NCBI GenBank assembly: GCA_944380355.1
Contig: CALWHJ010000002.1
Span: 128,368-192,367, forward strand
Reading direction: 5' to 3'
DNA length: 64,000 nt
Origin: an uncultured Christensenellaceae bacterium
GTDB taxonomy: Bacteria; Bacillota; Clostridia; Christensenellales; UBA3700
Shown here: positions 3,207 to 40,507 of the stretch, in pieces
How positions within the stretch are numbered: the first letter of the stretch is position 1
How the letters are laid out: the number at the start of each line of letters is the position of its first letter
Translations under genes and position numbers: made by a program
The notes under the pieces: model-generated
The model's input: only the letters and a program-made list of their open reading frames with translations
What the model was told of the DNA's origin: nothing
Databases searched by the model: none

Positions 3207-4028
3207 TTATTTTGCGCGGTAACCGTTGTAGGAATAGAGTGGCAAATTTTTTTGTATTCGAGCGAGGGTGTAGGTTTGCAGAGCGTTTTTAGGAGCGTAA
3301 TTTGCGCGGTCTTTTTTATAGCCGAATACACGCCTTTCGTTCATATCGCTGTCGGGGACGTAGCCGAGAATGTGGAAGAGTTTACCGAACTTTACGATAT
3401 TGCTGTCTTCTCCGAGTACGTTTTCTAGGTTGGGATTGACAAGCCAGGTTATCACGGTATAACAGCGGTATTTGTAGTCGGGATAATACTTTTCAAAAAA
3501 GGCGTTTGCGTCTTTTATTGAGGCAAGGCATTTTTGGGTATCGAGTTTTTCTCCCTGAGGGATATGCAGGGTAATGCATTTTTCTCCTAAGCGGTAGGGA
3601 CATTTGATTACGTCCTTTAATTTTGCGTGAGGAAGTATCAAAAAACGCGAAAATTCGTATTGAAGCCTTCCTATGCGGAAGATTTTCATTGAGAGATGTT
3701 TTGCTATCCAGCTAAGATTTTCAAGTCCCTGAGCGCCGTATTGTTCAAAGCCGTTGTCGCACCATATTTTGATATCCGAGAAAGTGTCGAAAAATATTTT
3801 TTCGTCTATGCCTTTTTCCTGATATTTAGCGTATACGTAAGGCAGGGCATTCAGGACCAGCGCGAGTTTTTGTTTGCCGTCGAGTTTGCGCGCGAAACCG
3901 CATTTACCTTTGAGTAAGAGGTAAAGAGTTTTATCGCAAAATTCTTTGTTGGAGTCTGTCCACCTGAGAGATTGTTGGGCGAGATTTTCGTCGATATTCA
4001 ATTTTATACAAATATCTTTTGCAGTCAT
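3207..4028 (-). CDS. Hypothetical protein, possibly DUF5596 plus GNAT-like C-terminal domain (acyltransferase-like) family
   Basis: This is a 273-aa ORF with no competing frame. The motifs RIGRLQYEF, ITLHIPQGEKL and CYTVITWLVNPNL resemble what I remember of that family. The assignment is from memory only. Confidence 0.4.
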   Translation of the reverse strand: MTAKDICIKLNIDENLAQQSLRWTDSNKEFCDKTLYLLLKGKCGFARKLDGKQKLALVLNALPYVYAKYQEKGIDEKIFFDTFSDIKIWCDNGFEQYGAQGLENLSWIAKHLSMKIFRIGRLQYEFSRFLILPHAKLKDVIKCPYRLGEKCITLHIPQGEKLDTQKCLASIKDANAFFEKYYPDYKYRCYTVITWLVNPNLENVLGEDSNIVKFGKLFHILGYVPDSDMNERRVFGYKKDRANYAPKNALQTYTLARIQKNLPLYSYNGYRAK

Positions 4029-15757: not shown

Positions 15758-16147
15758 TGGTGCCGAAGGCGGGACTTGTAAGGAGCAGAGCGACGGAATA
15801 GCGAGCAAGCGGATAGCGTCTCGTGCGAGCGTCACATTATTTCGGTAATCCTAACTTTGACAGCAAAGAGAGAGTCGAGGAAAAAGCGATAAAAAAATAG
15901 AGAGATTGACGTCTCTCTAATTTTTTTGTCTCAATACGAGACTCTCAAAAACTGGTGCCGAAGGCGGGACTTGTAAGGAGCGGAGCGACGGAATAGCGAG
16001 CAAGCGGATAGCGTCTCGTGCGAGCGTCACATTATTTCGGTAATCCTAACTTTGACAGCAAAGAGAGAGTCGAGGAAAAAGCGATAAAAAAATAGAGAGA
16101 TTGACGTCTCTCTAATTTTTTTGTCTCAATACGAGACTCTCAAAAAC
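15758..16147. repeat. Two tandem 195-bp direct repeats, each starting with the last 21 nt of tRNA-Leu and containing a copy of the tRNA terminator
   Basis: Units 15758-15952 and 15953-16147 differ at a single position (ggagcAgagcg versus ggagcGgagcg). Both start with tggtgccgaaggcgggacttg, which is identical to 16148-16168 of the intact tRNA. Confidence 0.95.
16086..16122 (-). terminator. Bidirectional Rho-independent terminator downstream of tRNA-Leu (a duplicate copy lies at 15891-15927)
   Basis: An A-run, then tagagaga (16093-16100), loop ttgacg, tctctcta (16107-16114), then a T-run. Confidence 0.7.
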
Positions 16148-16234
16148 TGGTGCCGAAGGCGGGACTTGAACCCGCACGATGTCGCCATCACCGGATTTTG
16201 AGTCCGGCGCGTCTGCCAATTCCACCACTTCGGC
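16148..16234 (-). tRNA. tRNA-Leu (anticodon CAA), type II with a long variable arm and an encoded CCA
   Basis: The minus strand reads GCCGAAG-UG-...-CCGGA CUCAAAA UCCGG-(long variable arm)-GCGGG UUCAAGU CCCGC-CUUCGGC-A-CCA. The acceptor stem has 7 bp. The anticodon loop is C-U-CAA-A-A. Confidence 0.93.
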
Positions 16235-35233: not shown

Positions 35234-36265
35234 TTACAGTGTTATAGTAACCTTGTTGAGGTTTCTGGGCGTGTCTACGTTAAGACCTTTCGCAAGACCG
35301 ATATTGAGTGCGAGAAGACTTATTGCGGTGCCGTAAAGTACGGGAGCTTCGAGTGCGTTAGCGTCGGGCATAACGACCTTGTTGGTTGCCAAATCGAGTA
35401 TCTCGGGTACGTTGCTGAATACAGTGAGATTTGCTCCGAGATTCTTAGCTCTCTTTGCCATATCTGCAAATTCCTGTTTGCATTCGCAATCAGGCGCAAG
35501 CAATATCACGTTTGCCTTGTCGTCGAGAAGGGAAAGAGGACCGTGCATAAAGTTAGCCGAAGAATACGAGCGGTTGAATAGATAGCAGCACTCAGTGAGT
35601 TTGAGAGCGCACTCGTCACCCGTACCGAGCATTGTGCCTCTGGACAATATGATAAAGTTGTTGAGTTTGTGGAGCTTTTCCGCTACGTCCTTTATCTGAG
35701 CGTTCATATCGAGTATTTCCTGTACTCTGTCGGCAAGCTTGTTCATATCGAGATTGAGATTTCCGCCGAGCGCGTCAGTAAGCATATAAAGAGCAAAGAG
35801 TTCTCCGATATATGTCTTGGTTGCAGCTACGCTCTTTTCTTCCTCTACGTCCATAAAGAGGTGGAAGTCTGCGTTTTTAGCAATAGGGCTTTGCGCATTG
35901 TTGGTTACGGCAACGGTGAGCGCGCCGTTTTTCATAGCTTTCTCCATTACGGCGATAGTATCTTTGGACATACCGCTCTGGGAGATAACTACCATACAGG
36001 TATGTTGCATATCCACGTCGCAATCGTATACAGTGGTGAGCGAGGGATGATATTTACCTACTTTAATACCCGTCTTGAGGGGGCATACGAAAGAAAATAC
36101 GGTTGCGGCATTGTCAGAGGTACCGCGTGCCATCGTAACGATATTGGTTATTTTCTTTTCTTTAAAAGCTTTTGCGATTGCGGAAAGTACGGGAGTACAA
36201 GCCGCTACCGTGCGCTTTAGCATAGAGGGTTCGCTGAAAATTTCTTGTTGCATCAATGTGGTCAT
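35234..36265 (-). CDS. Double-SIS-domain sugar-phosphate isomerase/deaminase (GlmS C-terminal / AgaS / FrlB-like)
   Basis: At 343 aa it lacks a glutaminase domain. SIS motifs are ARGTSDNAA, VISQSGMSKDT and VTNNAQSPIA. There is a second SIS half. Confidence 0.7.
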   Translation of the reverse strand: MTTLMQQEIFSEPSMLKRTVAACTPVLSAIAKAFKEKKITNIVTMARGTSDNAATVFSFVCPLKTGIKVGKYHPSLTTVYDCDVDMQHTCMVVISQSGMSKDTIAVMEKAMKNGALTVAVTNNAQSPIAKNADFHLFMDVEEEKSVAATKTYIGELFALYMLTDALGGNLNLDMNKLADRVQEILDMNAQIKDVAEKLHKLNNFIILSRGTMLGTGDECALKLTECCYLFNRSYSSANFMHGPLSLLDDKANVILLAPDCECKQEFADMAKRAKNLGANLTVFSNVPEILDLATNKVVMPDANALEAPVLYGTAISLLALNIGLAKGLNVDTPRNLNKVTITL

Positions 36266-36359
36266 AGTTCACCTCGTAGAAATTATTACAATAGAATTAT
36301 AGCATAAAAGGCATTTCTTAATCAATAATATTTGAAATTAATAAGCAATATACCTTTTA

Positions 36360-37634
36360 TCAGTGCAAAAGAGTGTTGACGAACTGCTCTGCCATACGTC
36401 CGGACTTTGCGCCGTTGCGCATAGCCCACGTGAGAGCCTGTTTGTCCAGTTGGTCGAGAGGGATTTTTATACCCGCGCGGTTTGCCAGCTCGTGTACGAT
36501 ATTCAAAAACTCCTGTTGGTCGGGAGAAGGATAGTATACGCTGAGGCCGAAACGCGCTACGAGAGAGAGCTTCTCGTTTTTGGTATCCGACTTATGAAGT
36601 TCGTCGTCTGCGCTCCTGTCGTTGCCGTCGCTGTAATTTTCCTTGATTATGTGGCGGCGGTTGGACGTAGCGTAAATGAGTACGTTGTCAGGCTTTACTT
36701 CGAGACCTCCGTCGATAATCGCTTTGAAGTATTTGTATTCGACTTCGAAGTCATCGAAAGACAAATCGTCGAGATAAAGTACGTATTTGTAGTTTCTCGA
36801 AGCAATCTGACTTATGATATCGCTTATAAACATAAATTGATGCTTGTATATCTCGATGACTCTCAGTCCCTTGTCGTAATACTCATTGATGAGTGCCTTT
36901 ATCGTCGAGGACTTACCTGTGCCCATATCTCCGTACAAAAGAACGTTGTTTGCCTTTTTGCCTGCGAGAAAAGCCTCGGTATTCTGTACTACTTTCTGTT
37001 TTTGCAATTCGTAGCCGACCAAATCTTTGAGAAGTTTTGAATCCATACTCGTGATAGGCAGAAGCTGAGAAGAGTGGTGCGTAATCTTCTTTTGAGGAAG
37101 ACTGTCTTTAGCTACTACCCTGAAGGCTTTATTGAGTCCCAATTCGCCTACGCCGTAAGTTCTGTAAAAATCTATTATGCAATCGAGAAAAGAGGTTGCC
37201 GAATTGCATTTTTCGAGTTTTGCAGTAAATACGGCAATCAAATCCGCATATGGTTTAGCCGAAGCAGCCAAGGTGCTTTTGAATTTTGTAATGTATTGTG
37301 CCGTATCTCCGATTAAGTTTATGCTTTCCAAGCGGTAGTTGAAAATCTCCATAAGGATTTTGCAATCGTCGTAGGCAATGTTCTCAAGCGAGCCTTCCAC
37401 GCTTTCTCTGCGCTCGTAGGCAAGCGAAAAAGCGTTGACGTCGCTTGCAATGAAATAAGCTATATAATAATGCCAGCTGTTGCCTTTTACTGCGTGCGTA
37501 TTTGCAAAGTCCATCAAATCCCCCAAAGTATTGTTGAGATTGACTTCCTGAGAGTTTTGCGACAGTTTTACGAATCTTTCCAATATAGTATTCGATATAT
37601 CGTATAATTTTAGTTTTGAAGTAAGATTTTGCAT
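36360..37634 (-). CDS. DUF815-type AAA ATPase
   Basis: The Walker A motif is LYGDMGTGKSST and the Walker B motif is YVLYLDDLSF. The size of 424 aa and the C-terminal helical region fit the family. Confidence 0.65.
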   Translation of the reverse strand: MQNLTSKLKLYDISNTILERFVKLSQNSQEVNLNNTLGDLMDFANTHAVKGNSWHYYIAYFIASDVNAFSLAYERRESVEGSLENIAYDDCKILMEIFNYRLESINLIGDTAQYITKFKSTLAASAKPYADLIAVFTAKLEKCNSATSFLDCIIDFYRTYGVGELGLNKAFRVVAKDSLPQKKITHHSSQLLPITSMDSKLLKDLVGYELQKQKVVQNTEAFLAGKKANNVLLYGDMGTGKSSTIKALINEYYDKGLRVIEIYKHQFMFISDIISQIASRNYKYVLYLDDLSFDDFEVEYKYFKAIIDGGLEVKPDNVLIYATSNRRHIIKENYSDGNDRSADDELHKSDTKNEKLSLVARFGLSVYYPSPDQQEFLNIVHELANRAGIKIPLDQLDKQALTWAMRNGAKSGRMAEQFVNTLLH

Positions 37635-37690
37635 ATTTTTTCCTCGGTGATAATTATAGCATTAATATTTGATAAAGACAACCTTTTTTA

Positions 37691-38216
37691 GGCGACCGCG
37701 TATAGCGGCGCATATTTTGCCTTTATCTGCGACGCTCGCGCTCAGTTACATACGCAAAGTATGCGCCTGTCGCGCTCGGTCTGGAAAAGACAAACTCTGC
37801 ACCACTCTACGCGGTCGCACGAAGTTAGTAATAAGGCAAGGCGGCGCGTCTTTGCGAATTTTCGCGAGCAGTTACGCTCGGTCACGTACGCTTAGTACGC
37901 TCCGCTCGCGAACTCTCTTAAAATTCACAAAATCACACCACTCTCCGCGGTCGCACGTAGTTAGTAATATATCGGCGCATATTTGCGATTGCTCGGTCAC
38001 GTACGTCTAGTACGCTCCGCTCGCGAACTCTCTTCAAAATCGCTATTCTGCACTAATCTCCGCGCTTGCACAGAGTTGGTAATATAGCGGCGCATATTTT
38101 GCCTTTATCTGCGACGCTCGCGCTCAGTTACATACGCAAAGTATGCGCCTGTCGCGCTCGGTCTGGAAAAGACAAACTCTGCACCACTCTCCGCGCTCGC
38201 ACGAAGTTTAATAATA
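37691..38216. repeat. Four tandem degenerate ~115-135-bp repeat units; units 1 and 4 are near-identical
   Basis: 37701-37826 and 38083-38208 are identical except at 37809/38191 and 37814/38196. All units share AGCGGCGCATATTTGC, GCTCGGTyACrTACGC-N3-GTAyGC and CACCACTCTnCGCGGTCGCACGnAGTTAGTAATAT. Unit 1 is bracketed by an 11-bp inverted repeat, gcgaccgcgta (37692-37702) and tacgcggtcgc (37808-37818). Confidence 0.9.
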
Positions 38217-38475
38217 TCTCTTTTTTTATTATCGTATATGCGCAATTGAGAGCGATATACAGGTATTAAATATATTAATATATTATAATATAATAATTTA
38301 TACAATTTACATAAGGCTTAAATTGTATAAATTAAGTTTCCAACGCGTGTATACGTATATGTGCGGGCATATATACGCACATTTTGCGCGCAAGTGGAAT
38401 TTATATCAGTTTGAAAACAGTACCGACAAACGGTTATATTTGCTTGTCGAATATACACCGTTTCGTTTGCGCCGT

Positions 38476-38610
38476 AATATAGCGGCACGCCTAGCGCCTT
38501 TTATTGCGATATTCTTGCTCGGTTACATACGCAAAGTATGCGCCCTTCGCAATCAATCTCAAAAAGCCGTTATCCTTACCACTCTATTACGGCTTTGTCG
38601 GTATAGAGCG
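38476..38610. repeat. Fifth, more diverged copy of the same repeat unit (a further terminal-motif fragment lies at ~38719-38750)
   Basis: It contains aatatagcggcacgcc...ttgctcggttacatacgcaaagtatgcgcc...taccactctattacgg. The fragment ccgctctacgcgctcgcctaattgg near 38719-38750 resembles the unit's 3' motif. Confidence 0.7.
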
Positions 38611-38819
38611 AACCCGACGTCTTGCCTTACGCTTTCGATACCTCGTAAGCGTAGGTATTCTGTCGAGGTGAGCGAACCGTAACTGCCGCGGGCGTACCGC
38701 GGACAAAAGGAAAAGGTGTGCCGCTCTACGCGCTCGCCTAATTGGAAAATTTTGTGCATTGCCCTCCCCCGCCCTCCTCTGTTAAAATGTAAGTACAAAA
38801 GACAAAGGAGGTCGTATAT

Positions 38820-39677
38820 ATGAAAAGACTGACGAAAACAAGTATCACCGTTTTGTTGTGTACGCTTATTTGCGCCTTTACTTTTGCGGCGTGCGCGACT
38901 CCTGCAGGTGAAAAAGACTGGGTTGTGGACTGGGATAAGTTCCAGCCCGAGGGCGGACTTCCCTCTCTTCCCGAAGACGGCTCGGGAGATGAGGAAGAAA
39001 CTCCCGACAACGAAGATACGCTAGCTCCCGCCGTAAGCTATTCGTATATGATTAAGAGCAATACGTCATCGCTCAATATCCGTTCTGCGCCGAATACCGG
39101 GGCTGCGGTAGTAGGTAAAATGGACAAAGGCGATATGTTGCGTTTTGAAGGCGAATCAAACGGTTGGTATAAGACTGTGTATAAACAAAAGACGGCATAC
39201 GTCTATGCGGGTAACAGCTATGCCTACATAGTGAAGATGACTCAAAGCAACGAAAAGGTTGAGAGTGTAATCGCGATAGGCGAGACGCTTATGGGATATC
39301 CTTACGTATGGGGCAGTCAGCGTTATCACTGGGGCAACGGAAAGCTTAATACCAATTTTGTGCAAGGAGAATACGATTGCTCGGCGTTAATGCAGTATAT
39401 ATATTATCACGGAGCAAACATAAACCTCGATCTGACTACGCGTACTCAGGTGCTGCAAGGAAGAGAGGTTGCAAGCGGGGATTTGCAGAGAGGCGACTTG
39501 ATGTTTTTCACTAATTCGTCGAGGTATAATCTCAGCGGAGTTGAAAGAATAGGTCACGTCGCGCTTTATCTCGGAGATAACTACATACTGCATACGGCAA
39601 GCGATTTTGCGGTAATCGAAGAGATTAGCAGCACGAGATGGAAGTACTTTATAGTAGCAAAGAGATTTGTATACTGA
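38820..39677 (+). CDS. SH3b plus NlpC/P60 (C40) cell-wall endopeptidase lipoprotein
   Basis: The lipobox is FTFAAC. The SH3b-like stretch is LNIRSAPNTGAAVVGKMDKGDMLRF..NGWYKT. The catalytic motifs are YDCSALMQYIYY (Cys) and GHVALYLG (His). The RBS is aaaggagg. Confidence 0.88.
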   Translation: MKRLTKTSITVLLCTLICAFTFAACATPAGEKDWVVDWDKFQPEGGLPSLPEDGSGDEEETPDNEDTLAPAVSYSYMIKSNTSSLNIRSAPNTGAAVVGKMDKGDMLRFEGESNGWYKTVYKQKTAYVYAGNSYAYIVKMTQSNEKVESVIAIGETLMGYPYVWGSQRYHWGNGKLNTNFVQGEYDCSALMQYIYYHGANINLDLTTRTQVLQGREVASGDLQRGDLMFFTNSSRYNLSGVERIGHVALYLGDNYILHTASDFAVIEEISSTRWKYFIVAKRFVY

Positions 39678-39761
39678 TGTAGTTATACAAATTTCCAATC
39701 TTTAAAATCGGAAGGCAAAAGGCGCAGATACAAGCATAGCCTTACCGTAAAGACAGTGACA

Positions 39762-39795
39762 AAATGCCGCCCGTGCAAGCGGGCGGCTAATTTTA
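39762..39795 (+). terminator. Rho-independent terminator
   Basis: gccgcccg (39766-39773) pairs with cgggcggc (39780-39787) and is followed by taatttta. Confidence 0.65.
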
Positions 39796-40477
39796 TAAGC
39801 GGCTATTCAAACTTAAAAAAAGTTAAGGAGGGATTGGCTTTAAAGGGCGTCGGTAAAGCTTAATATCAATAAAATATCAACGCTTTGAATCGCAAAATAA
39901 AGCATATATTTGACTAAAATTTTATGGACATAACGGTTGTGAAAAACAAGAGGGATTAACTTTGTTTTACGTTCGTGAGCGCGTATCGGTGCGCGTAAAG
40001 AAAATTGCCGCTCTAAGATTGCGTCAAAAATAAATGTTTCAGGTAGAGAAAAGGAGATGGTTTATAAACGTTTACTTCATCTGTTACCGTCTATTTTTAT
40101 TGCAAACGGTATATAAAAACAGAAGGTGGAGAATATATCAGTAAATAAAGCGGTTTTTGATAAATTAGCGGGCTAGAGAGGTGTTTTTCGATAGGCGCAA
40201 AAGAGACGACGAAAATGCGGGCGCCGATACCAAAACAGATTTGCAAAAAACGCAAAACTTTTGTCCGGGTTTTTCTGAAATAGGACAGAGAGATATTGAC
40301 AATTTTATTCGTGTTCAAAACAAAATCGCTACAAGTTTGAAAAAACTGCGTTTGACAGGAGAATAAAATATTCACAAAACGGATATCAATTCAATGTAAT
40401 AAAATGATTTTTTTACACGCTTAACGTAAGAGCTTTGCGTCAAGCGGGATATAGTTTGATACTGTTTTATTTTGTTA

Positions 40478-40507
40478 TTGCTAAACCGTTAAATGGTGTG
40501 TTATAAT
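40478..40507 (+). promoter_or_regulatory. Candidate extended -10 promoter of the two-component operon
   Basis: TTGCTA at 40478-40483, an 18-nt spacer ending in TGt, TATAAT at 40502-40507. Confidence 0.5.

What the first reader, a model, noticed from the sequence alone, without database searches (positions are those of the whole stretch)
37691..38750. Degenerate tandem array of ~115-135-bp units with a conserved, covarying hairpin in a 1.2-kb divergent intergenic region
**Seen in the sequence**
- Five to six units lie between the divergent DUF815 ATPase and NlpC/P60 genes.
- Units 1 and 4 are 124/126 identical. Units 2, 3 and 5 are much more diverged but keep the same block order: AGCGGCGCATATTTGC, then GCTCGGTyAC, then a hairpin, then an A-rich stretch, then CACCACTCTnCGCGGTCGCACGnAGTTAGTAATAT.
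- The hairpin is CATAC-gcaaa-GTATG in units 1, 4 and 5. It is CGTAC-gctta/gtcta-GTACG in units 2 and 3. An A-to-G change on the left arm is therefore matched by a T-to-C change on the right arm, which preserves the pairing.
- Unit 1 is bracketed by an 11-bp inverted repeat, which is MITE-like.
- The ORFs the track reports here translate to low-complexity R/S/L/A strings that repeat with the DNA, so they are not coding.
- The unit size and degeneracy rule out CRISPR.
- An 11-nt string, cgctcgcacga, is shared with the reverse complement of the tRNA-adjacent 195-bp unit.

**Inference**
- Possible explanations are a tandemly amplified small structured RNA, a REP/MITE-like element family, or an array of protein-binding sites. 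I do not recognise it as any named element.
Basis: seen in the sequence. Interest (0 to 1): 0.6.

Follow-up and report, generated by a model that had tools for sequence, protein, structure and literature searches.

The report
Pile-up of mobile hairpin repeats
The "tandem array" is the largest local cluster of a small non-coding hairpin-forming DNA repeat that occurs about 85 times in this uncultured gut Christensenella genome; it is wedged between two divergent promoters, differs between otherwise identical strains, and is a new example of a familiar kind of bacterial "junk" repeat, not a set of RNA genes.

Summary
Four head-to-tail units, a fifth separated unit and an inverted partial unit lie at 37689-38740, and the small hairpin does covary.

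It is not a stand-alone array. The units belong to a dispersed family of about 146 nt:
- About 85 pieces lie in 40 clusters in this 1.6-Mb genome.
- The whole element folds into one long hairpin.
- The rest of the 1.05-kb insert consists of three other repeat modules (B, C, D).

Evidence on origin and turnover:
- The divergent DUF815 / NlpC-P60 gene pair is conserved across the genus with a spacer of about 170-400 nt. Only this species and its sister carry the 1.1-1.2-kb mosaic, which sits exactly between two intact core promoters.
- In metagenome strains with an identical NlpC/P60 protein the spacer is 748-1331 nt. Unit number, subfamily and orientation all differ.
- Elsewhere, 15 of 33 full copies supply the stop codon of the upstream gene.

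Searches found no Rfam family, no RAYT/Y1 or IS630-type transposase and no reverse transcriptase in this genome, and no IS630-type gene in any of the 23 genus genomes.

Best reading: a MITE/ERIC/BOX-like selfish repeat nest shaped by insertion, slippage and recombination. The mobilising enzyme is unknown, and transcription could not be tested.

The parts
36360..37634 (-). DUF815 AAA-type ATPase gene, the left neighbour. It is transcribed away from the array.
   Evidence: Pfam PF05673, E 1.2e-89. One copy is present in all 23 genomes of the genus.
37653..37681 (-). Promoter-like site for the DUF815 gene (TTGTCT, 17-nt spacer, TATAAT, with TG). It ends 7 nt from the left edge of the repeat insert.
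   Evidence: Consensus scan, 10 of 12 matches. The flank is identical in all strains compared.
37689..37833 (+). Unit 1, a full-length element (model positions 2-146, subfamily alpha) with outer arms GCGACCGCG / CGCGGTCGC.
   Evidence: nhmmer score 140 bits. A 33-nt inverted repeat is present (I2). The covariance model scores 154.9 bits.
37834..37969 (+). Unit 2 (subfamily beta). Its 5' arm is cut down to AGGCAAG.
   Evidence: Model positions 18-146, 121 bits. The sequence was read directly.
37967..38084 (+). Unit 3 (subfamily gamma). It lacks the 5' outer arm and has a 16-nt internal deletion.
   Evidence: Model positions 13-146, 90 bits. The alignment shows the gap.
38082..38213 (+). Unit 4 (subfamily alpha, 98% identical to unit 1). 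It lacks the 5' outer arm.
38259..38400 (.). Module B, an AT-rich repeat with a perfect 16-bp hairpin (38294-38334) followed by a second palindrome. It belongs to a separate dispersed family.
   Evidence: There are 22 copies in the genome. The inverted repeat is I5. A copy lies at this locus in relative G021 as well.
38404..38469 (+). Module C, the left half of a separate C-D repeat element.
   Evidence: There are 22 copies. It is contiguous with module D in at least 8 other loci.
38470..38593 (+). Unit 5, a divergent family member with terminal inverted repeats GCCGTAATA / TATTACGGC. It is nested inside the C-D element and flanked by TTTG on both sides.
   Evidence: Model positions 3-121, 79.5 bits. 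The inverted repeat is I3. The unit is absent in strains L084 and L085, where the site reads cgTTTGgtcgg. The C-unit5-D composite is 95-97% identical to three other loci.
38594..38677 (+). Module D, the right half of the C-D repeat element.
   Evidence: There are 18 copies.
38678..38740 (-). Inverted 5' part of a family element (model positions 2-63). Together with unit 1 it brackets the whole 1.05-kb insert with outward-facing 5' arms.
   Evidence: nhmmer score 39 bits. A 44-nt inverted repeat pairs 37688-37731 with 38698-38741 (I1).
38742..38788 (+). Genus-conserved box TTGGAAAATTTTGTG followed by a promoter-like site (TTGCCC, 18-nt spacer, TAAAAT, with TG) for the NlpC/P60 gene. It starts directly after the insert.
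   Evidence: Consensus scan. The box is conserved in 6 relatives that lack the array.
38820..39677 (+). NlpC/P60 + SH3 lipoprotein gene, the right neighbour.
   Evidence: Pfam PF00877 and PF08239. The divergent pairing with the DUF815 gene is conserved in all 10 relatives checked.

Best explanation
**What it is**
- The region is a strain-variable nest of small non-coding palindromic DNA repeats. It is not a gene array.
- The main component is a ~146-bp element. It has conserved boxes (TATAGCGGCGC near the 5' end, GTCACGTAC-N5-GTACGC at the tip, CACCACTCTCCGCG near the 3' end) and variable, mutually complementary outer arms, so each copy can fold into one long hairpin.
- The family behaves like bacterial MITE/ERIC/BOX-type repeats. 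It is scattered through the genome in subfamilies of near-identical copies, and it is usually docked in sense orientation on the stop codon of a gene.

**What happened at this locus**
- Copies landed in the short spacer between two divergent core promoters, a place where extra DNA is tolerated.
- The cluster then grew and was reshuffled by further insertions next to or into resident copies, by slippage deletions at the hairpins, and by recombination between direct and inverted copies. This produced a 1.05-kb mosaic.

**Shown**
- Family membership and the conserved hairpin.
- Lineage-specific presence.
- Strain-to-strain variation in unit number, subfamily and orientation.
- Both core promoters are intact.

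**Inferred**
- Mobility is by a trans-acting enzyme, which was not identified.
- The target is probably a TA.
- The array has no dedicated function for the two flanking genes.
For: **Dispersed family**
- BLAST finds 58 matches. Profile searches find 79-112, which reduce to 85 non-overlapping pieces in 40 clusters, or 0.58% of the genome. This cluster is the largest: 1052 bp and 6 pieces.

**Long hairpin**
- 95.1% of pair cells are paired, against 82% in shuffles and 28-53% when partners are slid.
- 16 of 25 pairs have changes on both sides.

**The rest of the insert is also repeats**
- Modules B, C and D have 22, 22 and 18 copies.

**Lineage-specific insertion**
- The spacer is 1185 nt here and about 1100 nt in sister genome G014.
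- It is about 375-400 nt in G021 and G009, and about 170-250 nt in six other species that have the same gene pair.

**Turnover between close relatives and strains**
- G014 carries different subfamilies in the same slots, while the flanks are about 97-99% identical.
- Five metagenome contigs have the identical NlpC/P60 protein and identical flanks, yet spacers of 748, 766, 919, 1185 and 1331 nt. They carry 1-4 units, inversions, and unit 5 present or absent.

**Filled and empty sites**
- The parB stop reads aaaTAAtat when empty (G009) and aaaTA[GGCAAG...GTGGG]TAatat when filled (G000, G014). A different subfamily occupies the same site in G021.
- Unit 5 has terminal inverted repeats and is flanked by TTTG.

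**Stop-codon docking elsewhere**
- 11 + 4 of 33 full copies supply the stop codon of the upstream same-strand ORF.
- If TAATAW targets were hit at random, about 5% would be expected (P = 6e-9).

**Other support**
- The core promoters on both sides are intact.
- There is no Rfam match.
- General properties of bacterial MITEs are taken from PMC2229807 and PMC3184786.
Against: **No mobilising enzyme found**
- This 97%-complete MAG has no Y1/RAYT gene, no reverse transcriptase and no multi-copy IS of 1 kb or more.
- None of the 23 genomes of the genus has an IS630-type DDE_3 gene.
- A MAG can lose repeat-flanked contigs, so absence is weak evidence.

**Element ends and target duplication are not pinned down**
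- TA at parB and TTTG at unit 5 do not agree.
- Internal array units lack the 13-nt 5' arm, which simple repeated insertion does not explain.

**Slot swapping needs more than plain transposition or RecA recombination**
- The same slot is occupied by four subfamilies with fixed boundaries. This pattern calls for something more specific.

**Limits of the data**
- Short-read metagenome assemblies can mis-join repeats.
Confidence: 0.75

Rival explanations
1. The units are copies of a functional structured small RNA, or of an mRNA-end structure, and the array is a multi-copy RNA locus.
For: - There is strong compensatory variation along the whole hairpin, and the tip sequence is conserved.
- Elsewhere most full copies lie in sense orientation right after a stop codon, so they must be co-transcribed with the upstream gene.
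- ERIC-type and other MITE-type repeats are known to affect mRNA stability (PMC3184786).
Against: - At this locus the array follows no gene end. It lies between two gene starts.
- No promoter-plus-terminator pair frames any single unit, and there is no Rfam family.
- Units are deleted, replaced by other subfamilies and inverted between strains that share identical flanks.
- On the element strand, A-C mismatches (about 20) outnumber G-U pairs (9), which is the opposite of what RNA selection would give. After removing one subfamily effect there is no asymmetry.
- Arm-to-arm correction inside a DNA palindrome gives the same covariation.
Confidence: 0.1
2. The array is a cis-regulatory device, either a row of binding sites for a DNA-binding protein or an insulator that sets the spacing and independence of the two divergent promoters.
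For: - It sits exactly between the two core promoters, which are intact.
- The invariant tip palindrome ACGTAC...GTACG looks like a protein site.
- Some Correia elements carry promoters and IHF sites.
Against: - Six other species of the genus have the same gene pair with a 170-250-nt spacer and no array.
- Strains with identical genes have 1-4 units in either orientation.
- The same units sit at 39 other unrelated places.
Confidence: 0.07
3. The repeats are REPIN-like hairpins, or sites like them, moved by a dedicated single-strand (Y1/RAYT-type) or site-specific recombinase that recognises the conserved stem base and swaps whole hairpin cassettes at fixed sites.
For: - Four subfamilies occupy the same slot with fixed boundaries GGCGA...TCGC, each with matching arms.
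- A different subfamily sits on the same parB stop codon in G021.
- The outermost stem pairs are nearly invariant while the inner ones covary.
- Docking is orientation-specific.
Against: - There is no Y1_Tnp in G000.
- The only Y1 fragment in sister genome G014 is an ordinary IS200 end with no family repeats near it.
- No candidate recombinase was linked to the family. Tyrosine recombinases were not surveyed.
Confidence: 0.08

Closest known systems
ERIC / IRU (RU-1) and other bacterial MITEs such as Correia and RUP (reviews PMC2229807, PMC3184786)
   Same: - It is under 200 bp and non-coding, and it pairs 5' end to 3' end into one long stem-loop.
- TA stands at or next to both ends.
- It is intergenic and often at 3' ends of genes, where it is co-transcribed.
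- It has subfamilies of near-identical copies and presence/absence differences between close relatives.
   Different: - There is no detectable partner transposase.
- The outer arms differ between subfamilies but stay complementary.
- About half of the full copies supply the stop codon itself.
- It forms head-to-tail arrays of units that lack the 5' arm.
- Sequence similarity to ERIC was not tested.
BOX elements of Streptococcus pneumoniae (boxA-(boxB)n-boxC)
   Same: - It has a modular build with a variable number of internal modules between pairing ends.
- Copy structure varies between strains, and no transposase is known (for the description; here).
   Different: - The sequence and host are unrelated.
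- Here the repeated module is the whole core plus the 3' arm (115-135 nt).
- It is mixed with three further repeat families (B, C, D).
REP / BIME / REPIN elements with RAYT transposases
   Same: - They are hairpin repeats clustered in mosaics with alternating orientations, located after genes.
- They evolve fast and are exchanged between strains (PMC2817692 abstract).
   Different: - REPs are 20-40-nt units with a conserved tetranucleotide head.
- No RAYT/Y1 gene is present in this genome.
Rickettsia palindromic element RPE-1
   Same: It is a palindromic repeat of similar size that can sit in or on reading frames.
   Different: The six-frame search of this genome with the RPE1 model TIGR01045 found nothing at E<=1, and the array ORFs do not match it.

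Membership tests
Bacterial MITE (as defined in PMC2229807) | Small (<200 bp), non-coding, many dispersed copies | tested here: met
   The element is about 146 nt, with 85 pieces in 40 clusters. The ORFs in it have no family match.
Bacterial MITE (as defined in PMC2229807) | Terminal inverted repeats that give a 5'-3' paired stem-loop | tested here: met
   Outer helix 5-13/127-135 is 94% paired, and 7 of its 9 pairs show compensatory changes. Unit 5 has perfect 9-nt ends.
Bacterial MITE (as defined in PMC2229807) | Target-site duplication (often TA) | tested here: inconclusive
   The filled and empty parB sites fit a TA duplication. Unit 5 is flanked by TTTG. Flanks in relatives are too diverged to fix the ends to the base.
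Bacterial MITE (as defined in PMC2229807) | A transposase in the genome whose element has matching ends | tested here: not met
   G000 has no PF01797 and no multi-copy IS of 1 kb or more, and no genome of the genus has PF13358. Other transposase families were not surveyed, and the MAG is 97% complete.
REPIN / RAYT system | RAYT (Y1 HUH transposase) gene flanked by the repeats | tested here: not met
   There is no Y1_Tnp match in G000. The fragment in G014 is an IS200 end without family repeats nearby.
Any Rfam RNA family | Match to a curated covariance model | tested here: not met
   Only four chance-level hits at E<=10 were found in 36000-40500, and none lies on the units.
Rickettsia palindromic element RPE-1 | Match to the RPE1 domain model TIGR01045 in some frame | tested here: not met
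   The six-frame search of the whole genome found 0 matches at E<=1.
Retroposed (SINE-like) repeat | A reverse transcriptase in the genome | tested here: not met
   There is no RVT_1 in G000, G014, G021 or G009, the four high-copy genomes. The apparent 5' truncations are mostly internal deletions.
Integron attC sites / CALIN | Inverse core RYYYAAC and core GTTRRRY at the ends, with units separated by cassette ORFs | tested here: not met
   By inspection of the alignment, the 5' end is TAGGCGA and the 3' end is AGTnnGTAATA, and there are no ORFs between units. The integrase was not searched for.
CRISPR array | Short identical repeats with unique spacers | tested here: not met
   Units are 115-145 nt, abut one another and are 59-98% identical to each other.
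ERIC (enterobacterial repetitive intergenic consensus) | Sequence similarity to the 127-bp ERIC consensus | not tested
   No ERIC reference sequence was available in the tools used. The resemblance is in architecture only.

The most novel reading that the evidence does not exclude
The family, which is spread patchily through Christensenellales, may be moved by a so far unrecognised site-specific mechanism. That mechanism would dock a hairpin cassette on the TA of a stop codon, or on a resident copy, and would exchange whole GGCGA...TCGC cassettes between fixed boundaries. It would do so without any Y1, IS630-type or RT enzyme. This array would then be a stack of such docking events.
Probability: 0.15. 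Interest if true: 0.7.

Novelty: new member of a known kind. Interest (0 to 1): 0.35.

Why it matters
**For annotation**
- The three to four ORFs that gene callers report here are repeat DNA, and contigs of this species tend to break at these clusters.
- Of the 10 places shown, 4 metagenome contigs end inside this spacer.

**For biology**
- The family makes up 0.6% of a small gut-bacterial genome.
- It supplies the stop codons of at least 15 genes.
- It creates strain-variable spacers between promoters and may mediate rearrangements.

**Open question**
- The enzyme or process that docks and swaps these hairpins is not known. The repeated finding of such stop-codon-docked hairpin repeats in uncultured gut bacteria makes that question worth a targeted study.
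- This particular array adds one point: docking at a stop codon is a preference, not a requirement.

Tried and rejected
- **Rfam**: a scan of 36000-40500 at E<=10 gave only chance hits (SCARNA7, mir-297) in the AT-rich spacer.
- **RAYT/Y1**: absent from G000. The Y1 fragment at a contig end in G014 turned out to be an ordinary IS200 end.
- **IS630-type DDE_3**: absent from all 23 genomes of the genus.
- **Retroposition:** I raised this idea because many units keep the 3' end and seem 5'-truncated. I rejected it because the high-copy genomes have no RT and because the "truncated" units keep the TATAGCGG start and carry internal deletions.
- **RPE-1 link**, a lead from earlier notes: TIGR01045 finds nothing.
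- **Empty sites between G000 and G014:** all 8 repeat blocks of G014 that I could map are also occupied in G000, but with different content. No clean empty site came from that comparison.
- **Metagenome pattern scan** for strain variants: it returned one unrelated contig, a chance match.
- **The 195-bp tRNA-adjacent repeat:** it has no similarity to the family beyond the 11-mer.
- **G-U versus A-C counts** to pick an RNA strand: inconclusive.

Full report
**1. What is at the coordinates**

Four units abut head to tail between 37689 and 38213. A fifth, more divergent unit lies at 38467-38585.

Units 1 and 4 are 98% identical over 126 nt and 129/134 over the wider span. All other pairs are 59-72% identical.

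- An inverted partial unit lies at 38678-38740. With unit 1 it brackets the whole insert (44-nt inverted repeat I1).
- Each unit is itself a long imperfect palindrome (33-nt inverted repeat I2 around unit 1).
- The small CATAC/GTATG hairpin is only the tip of that palindrome.

The flanking genes are a DUF815 ATPase (minus strand) and an NlpC/P60-SH3 protein (plus strand).

**2. It is a dispersed family, not a local array**

- The unit has 58 BLAST matches in the window's own 1.6-Mb, 17-contig genome.
- Iterated profile searches extend the unit to about 146 nt. The consensus runs ATAGGCGACCGCGTATAGCGGCGC ... GTCACGTAC-N5-GTACGC ... CACCACTCTCCGCGGTCGCACGnAGTnnGTAATAT.
- These searches give 85 non-overlapping pieces in 40 clusters, or 0.58% of the genome.
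- The window holds only this one cluster. It is the largest in the genome, at 1052 bp and six pieces.
- Almost everything else in the insert is repeated too:
  - module B, an AT-rich element with a perfect 16-bp hairpin, 22 copies;
  - module C, 22 copies;
  - module D, 18 copies.
- C and D are contiguous at eight or more other loci. Here and at three other loci (95-97% identical) they are separated by a unit-5-type element.

**3. Structure**

I aligned 32 full copies (A1). RNAalifold predicts one long hairpin of 25 pairs, 16 of which show changes on both sides. With that structure:
- 95.1% of pair cells are paired, against 81.9% in shuffles (0 of 500 reach it) and 28-53% when partners are slid by 1-3 columns;
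- the outer arms come in matched versions: GCGACCGCG/CGCGGTCGC, GCGAGCGCG/CGCGCTCGC, GCGACCTTG/CAAGGTCGC and GCGACCGCA/TGCGGTCGC;

So the covariation is real and much more extensive than one pair. It does not prove an RNA. A palindromic DNA element shows the same pattern if its two arms are recognised by one protein or corrected against each other. On the element strand, A-C mismatches (about 20) outnumber G-U pairs (9), which gives no sign of RNA-level wobble tolerance. No Rfam family matches.

**4. Where the family sits**

I used a crude ORF set covering 86% of the genome.
- Of the 33 full-length copies, 22 follow a same-strand gene.
- In 11 of these the element's TAG at positions 2-4 is the gene's stop codon.
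- In 4 the TAG or TAA at positions 16-18 is the stop codon.
- Two more copies lie within 10 nt of the stop.
- If TAATAW sites outside genes were hit at random, about 5% would be stop codons (82 of 1527). The observed 13 of 33 has P = 6e-9.
- Ten full copies, including unit 1 here, instead face the start of a divergent gene.

Stop-codon docking is therefore a strong preference, not a rule.

At parB the empty site in relative G009 reads aaaTAAtat. The filled site in G000 and G014 reads aaaTA[GGCAAG...GTGGG]TAatat. G021 has another subfamily on the same stop codon. More distant relatives have an ordinary terminator there. This fits insertion at a TA, but the ends cannot be fixed to the base.

**5. 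History of this locus**

The divergent DUF815 / NlpC-P60 pair is conserved in every genome of the genus that I checked.

| Genome(s) | Spacer length |
|---|---|
| This genome | 1185 nt |
| Sister G014 (98% protein identity) | about 1100 nt |
| G021, G009 | about 375-400 nt |
| Six other species | about 170-250 nt |

- What is conserved across the genus is the NlpC/P60 promoter region: the box TTGGAAAATTTTGTG, then TTGnnn, then TGnTAAAAT.
- In the window the insert ends exactly at that box and begins 7 nt beyond the -35 of the DUF815 promoter-like site.
- The repeats therefore fill the one stretch between two intact core promoters.

**6. Turnover**

Against G014 the unique flanks are nearly identical, but the slots hold different subfamilies. 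One unit carries a large deletion between CTCGC direct repeats.

A look-up of the exact NlpC/P60 protein returned metagenome contigs from other samples. The results are as follows:
- Five contigs span the spacer. Left flanks are 151-153 of 153 identical and right flanks 85 of 85 identical, yet the spacers are 748, 766, 919, 1185 (identical to the window) and 1331 nt.
- These contigs have one to four units, inverted segments, duplicated C-D modules, and unit 5 present or absent.
- The first slot after the same T-run holds four different subfamilies, each with its own matching arms. The junction to the next unit is the same in four contigs.
- Four further contigs end inside the spacer.
- One contig (L082) joins the repeat cluster behind queH to the NlpC/P60 promoter. 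This is either a rearrangement through repeats or an assembly chimera.

Short-read assemblies can mis-join repeats. However, the slot-1 subfamily is fixed by sequence that spans the unique junction, and an independent MAG (G014) agrees with one of the contigs.

**7. Search for a mobilising enzyme**

- G000 has no Y1/RAYT gene.
- No genome of the genus has an IS630-type DDE_3 gene.
- G000 and the other three high-copy genomes have no RVT_1 reverse transcriptase.
- G000 has no multi-copy IS of 1 kb or more.
- The Y1 fragment in G014 is an ordinary IS200 end.
- The RPE1 model finds nothing.

Absence from a 97%-complete MAG is weak evidence, and other transposase and recombinase families were not surveyed.

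**8. Range**

- The exact 3' box occurs only in two uncultured Christensenella/Christensenellaceae MAGs of the species collection.
- BLAST finds the family in 14 of 23 genomes of the genus, with high copy number in four.
- Covariance model R1 finds full-length relatives in 13 of 96 genera of the order. The conserved blocks are CGCGTATAGCGGCGC, GTCACGTAC...GTACGC and CACCGCTCTCCGCG, again at gene ends.
- Outside the order it finds almost nothing in a 400-genome sample of the phylum.
- A literature search found no description of repeats in Christensenellaceae. The general class is well described.

**9. Verdict**

- The array is a strain-variable nest of selfish palindromic repeats, tolerated between two promoters. 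It was built by insertion next to resident copies, hairpin slippage and recombination.
- Two things remain unexplained: the cassette-like swapping at fixed boundaries, and the lack of any recognisable enzyme.
- Earlier notes of this scan describe the same family elsewhere in this genome. I re-derived the stop-codon docking and the strain swapping independently, and I did not confirm the suggested RPE-1 link for this family.

Noticed in passing
window 38259-38400 (hairpin 38294-38334): Module B is an AT-rich repeat with a perfect 16-bp stem (TAATTTATACAATTTA / TAAATTGTATAAATTA, loop CATAAGGCT). It has 22 copies in the genome. Many lie directly upstream of family elements, and others stand alone. 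A copy is also present at this locus in relative G021, so it predates the array.
   Followed up: partly
window 38404-38469 and 38594-38677: Modules C and D form one ~160-nt palindromic repeat (TACCGACAAA ... TTTGTCGGTA) at eight or more loci. At four loci a unit-5-type element is nested between them, flanked by TTTG.
   Followed up: partly
window 38742-38756: The box TTGGAAAATTTTGTG lies just upstream of the -35 of the NlpC/P60 promoter and is conserved across the genus in species with and without the array. It may be an UP element or a regulator site.
   Followed up: no
L082 (ENA ERZ16268108 scaffold_3183): This contig joins the queH-end repeat cluster (C3, about 174.7 kb in G000) to the NlpC/P60 promoter in place of the DUF815 gene. 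It is either a rearrangement by recombination between repeat clusters or an assembly chimera.
   Followed up: no
window 15758-16168: A 195-bp tandem duplication (2.1 copies, 99% identical) begins with the reverse complement of a tRNA 3' end. Apart from one shared 11-mer it is unrelated to the hairpin family.
   Followed up: partly
G000 C6:67263-67400: This element is chimeric, with an alpha-type 5' arm and core but a delta-type 3' arm, so its outer stem is broken. It is direct evidence of recombination between subfamilies.
   Followed up: no
L078 (G118:C2:1-147): In another family of the order, a distant member of the repeat family starts directly after the CCA end of a tRNA gene instead of after a stop codon.
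   Followed up: no
G000 C1:149075-149474, C1:226603-227044, C1:261302-261621, C4:101536-101948, C6:86412-86688, C15:1-365: A further repeat of about 300-400 bp occurs in at least six copies at 89-95% identity. It is unrelated to the family studied here and was not identified.
   Followed up: no
G000 C15 about 3330-3370: A mini-element consists only of the 5' arm, TATA and the 3' arm plus tail (ATAGGCGACCACGTATATGCGGTCGCACAAAGTATGTAAT). It is followed by an arm-less unit and shows that the whole core can be lost.
   Followed up: no
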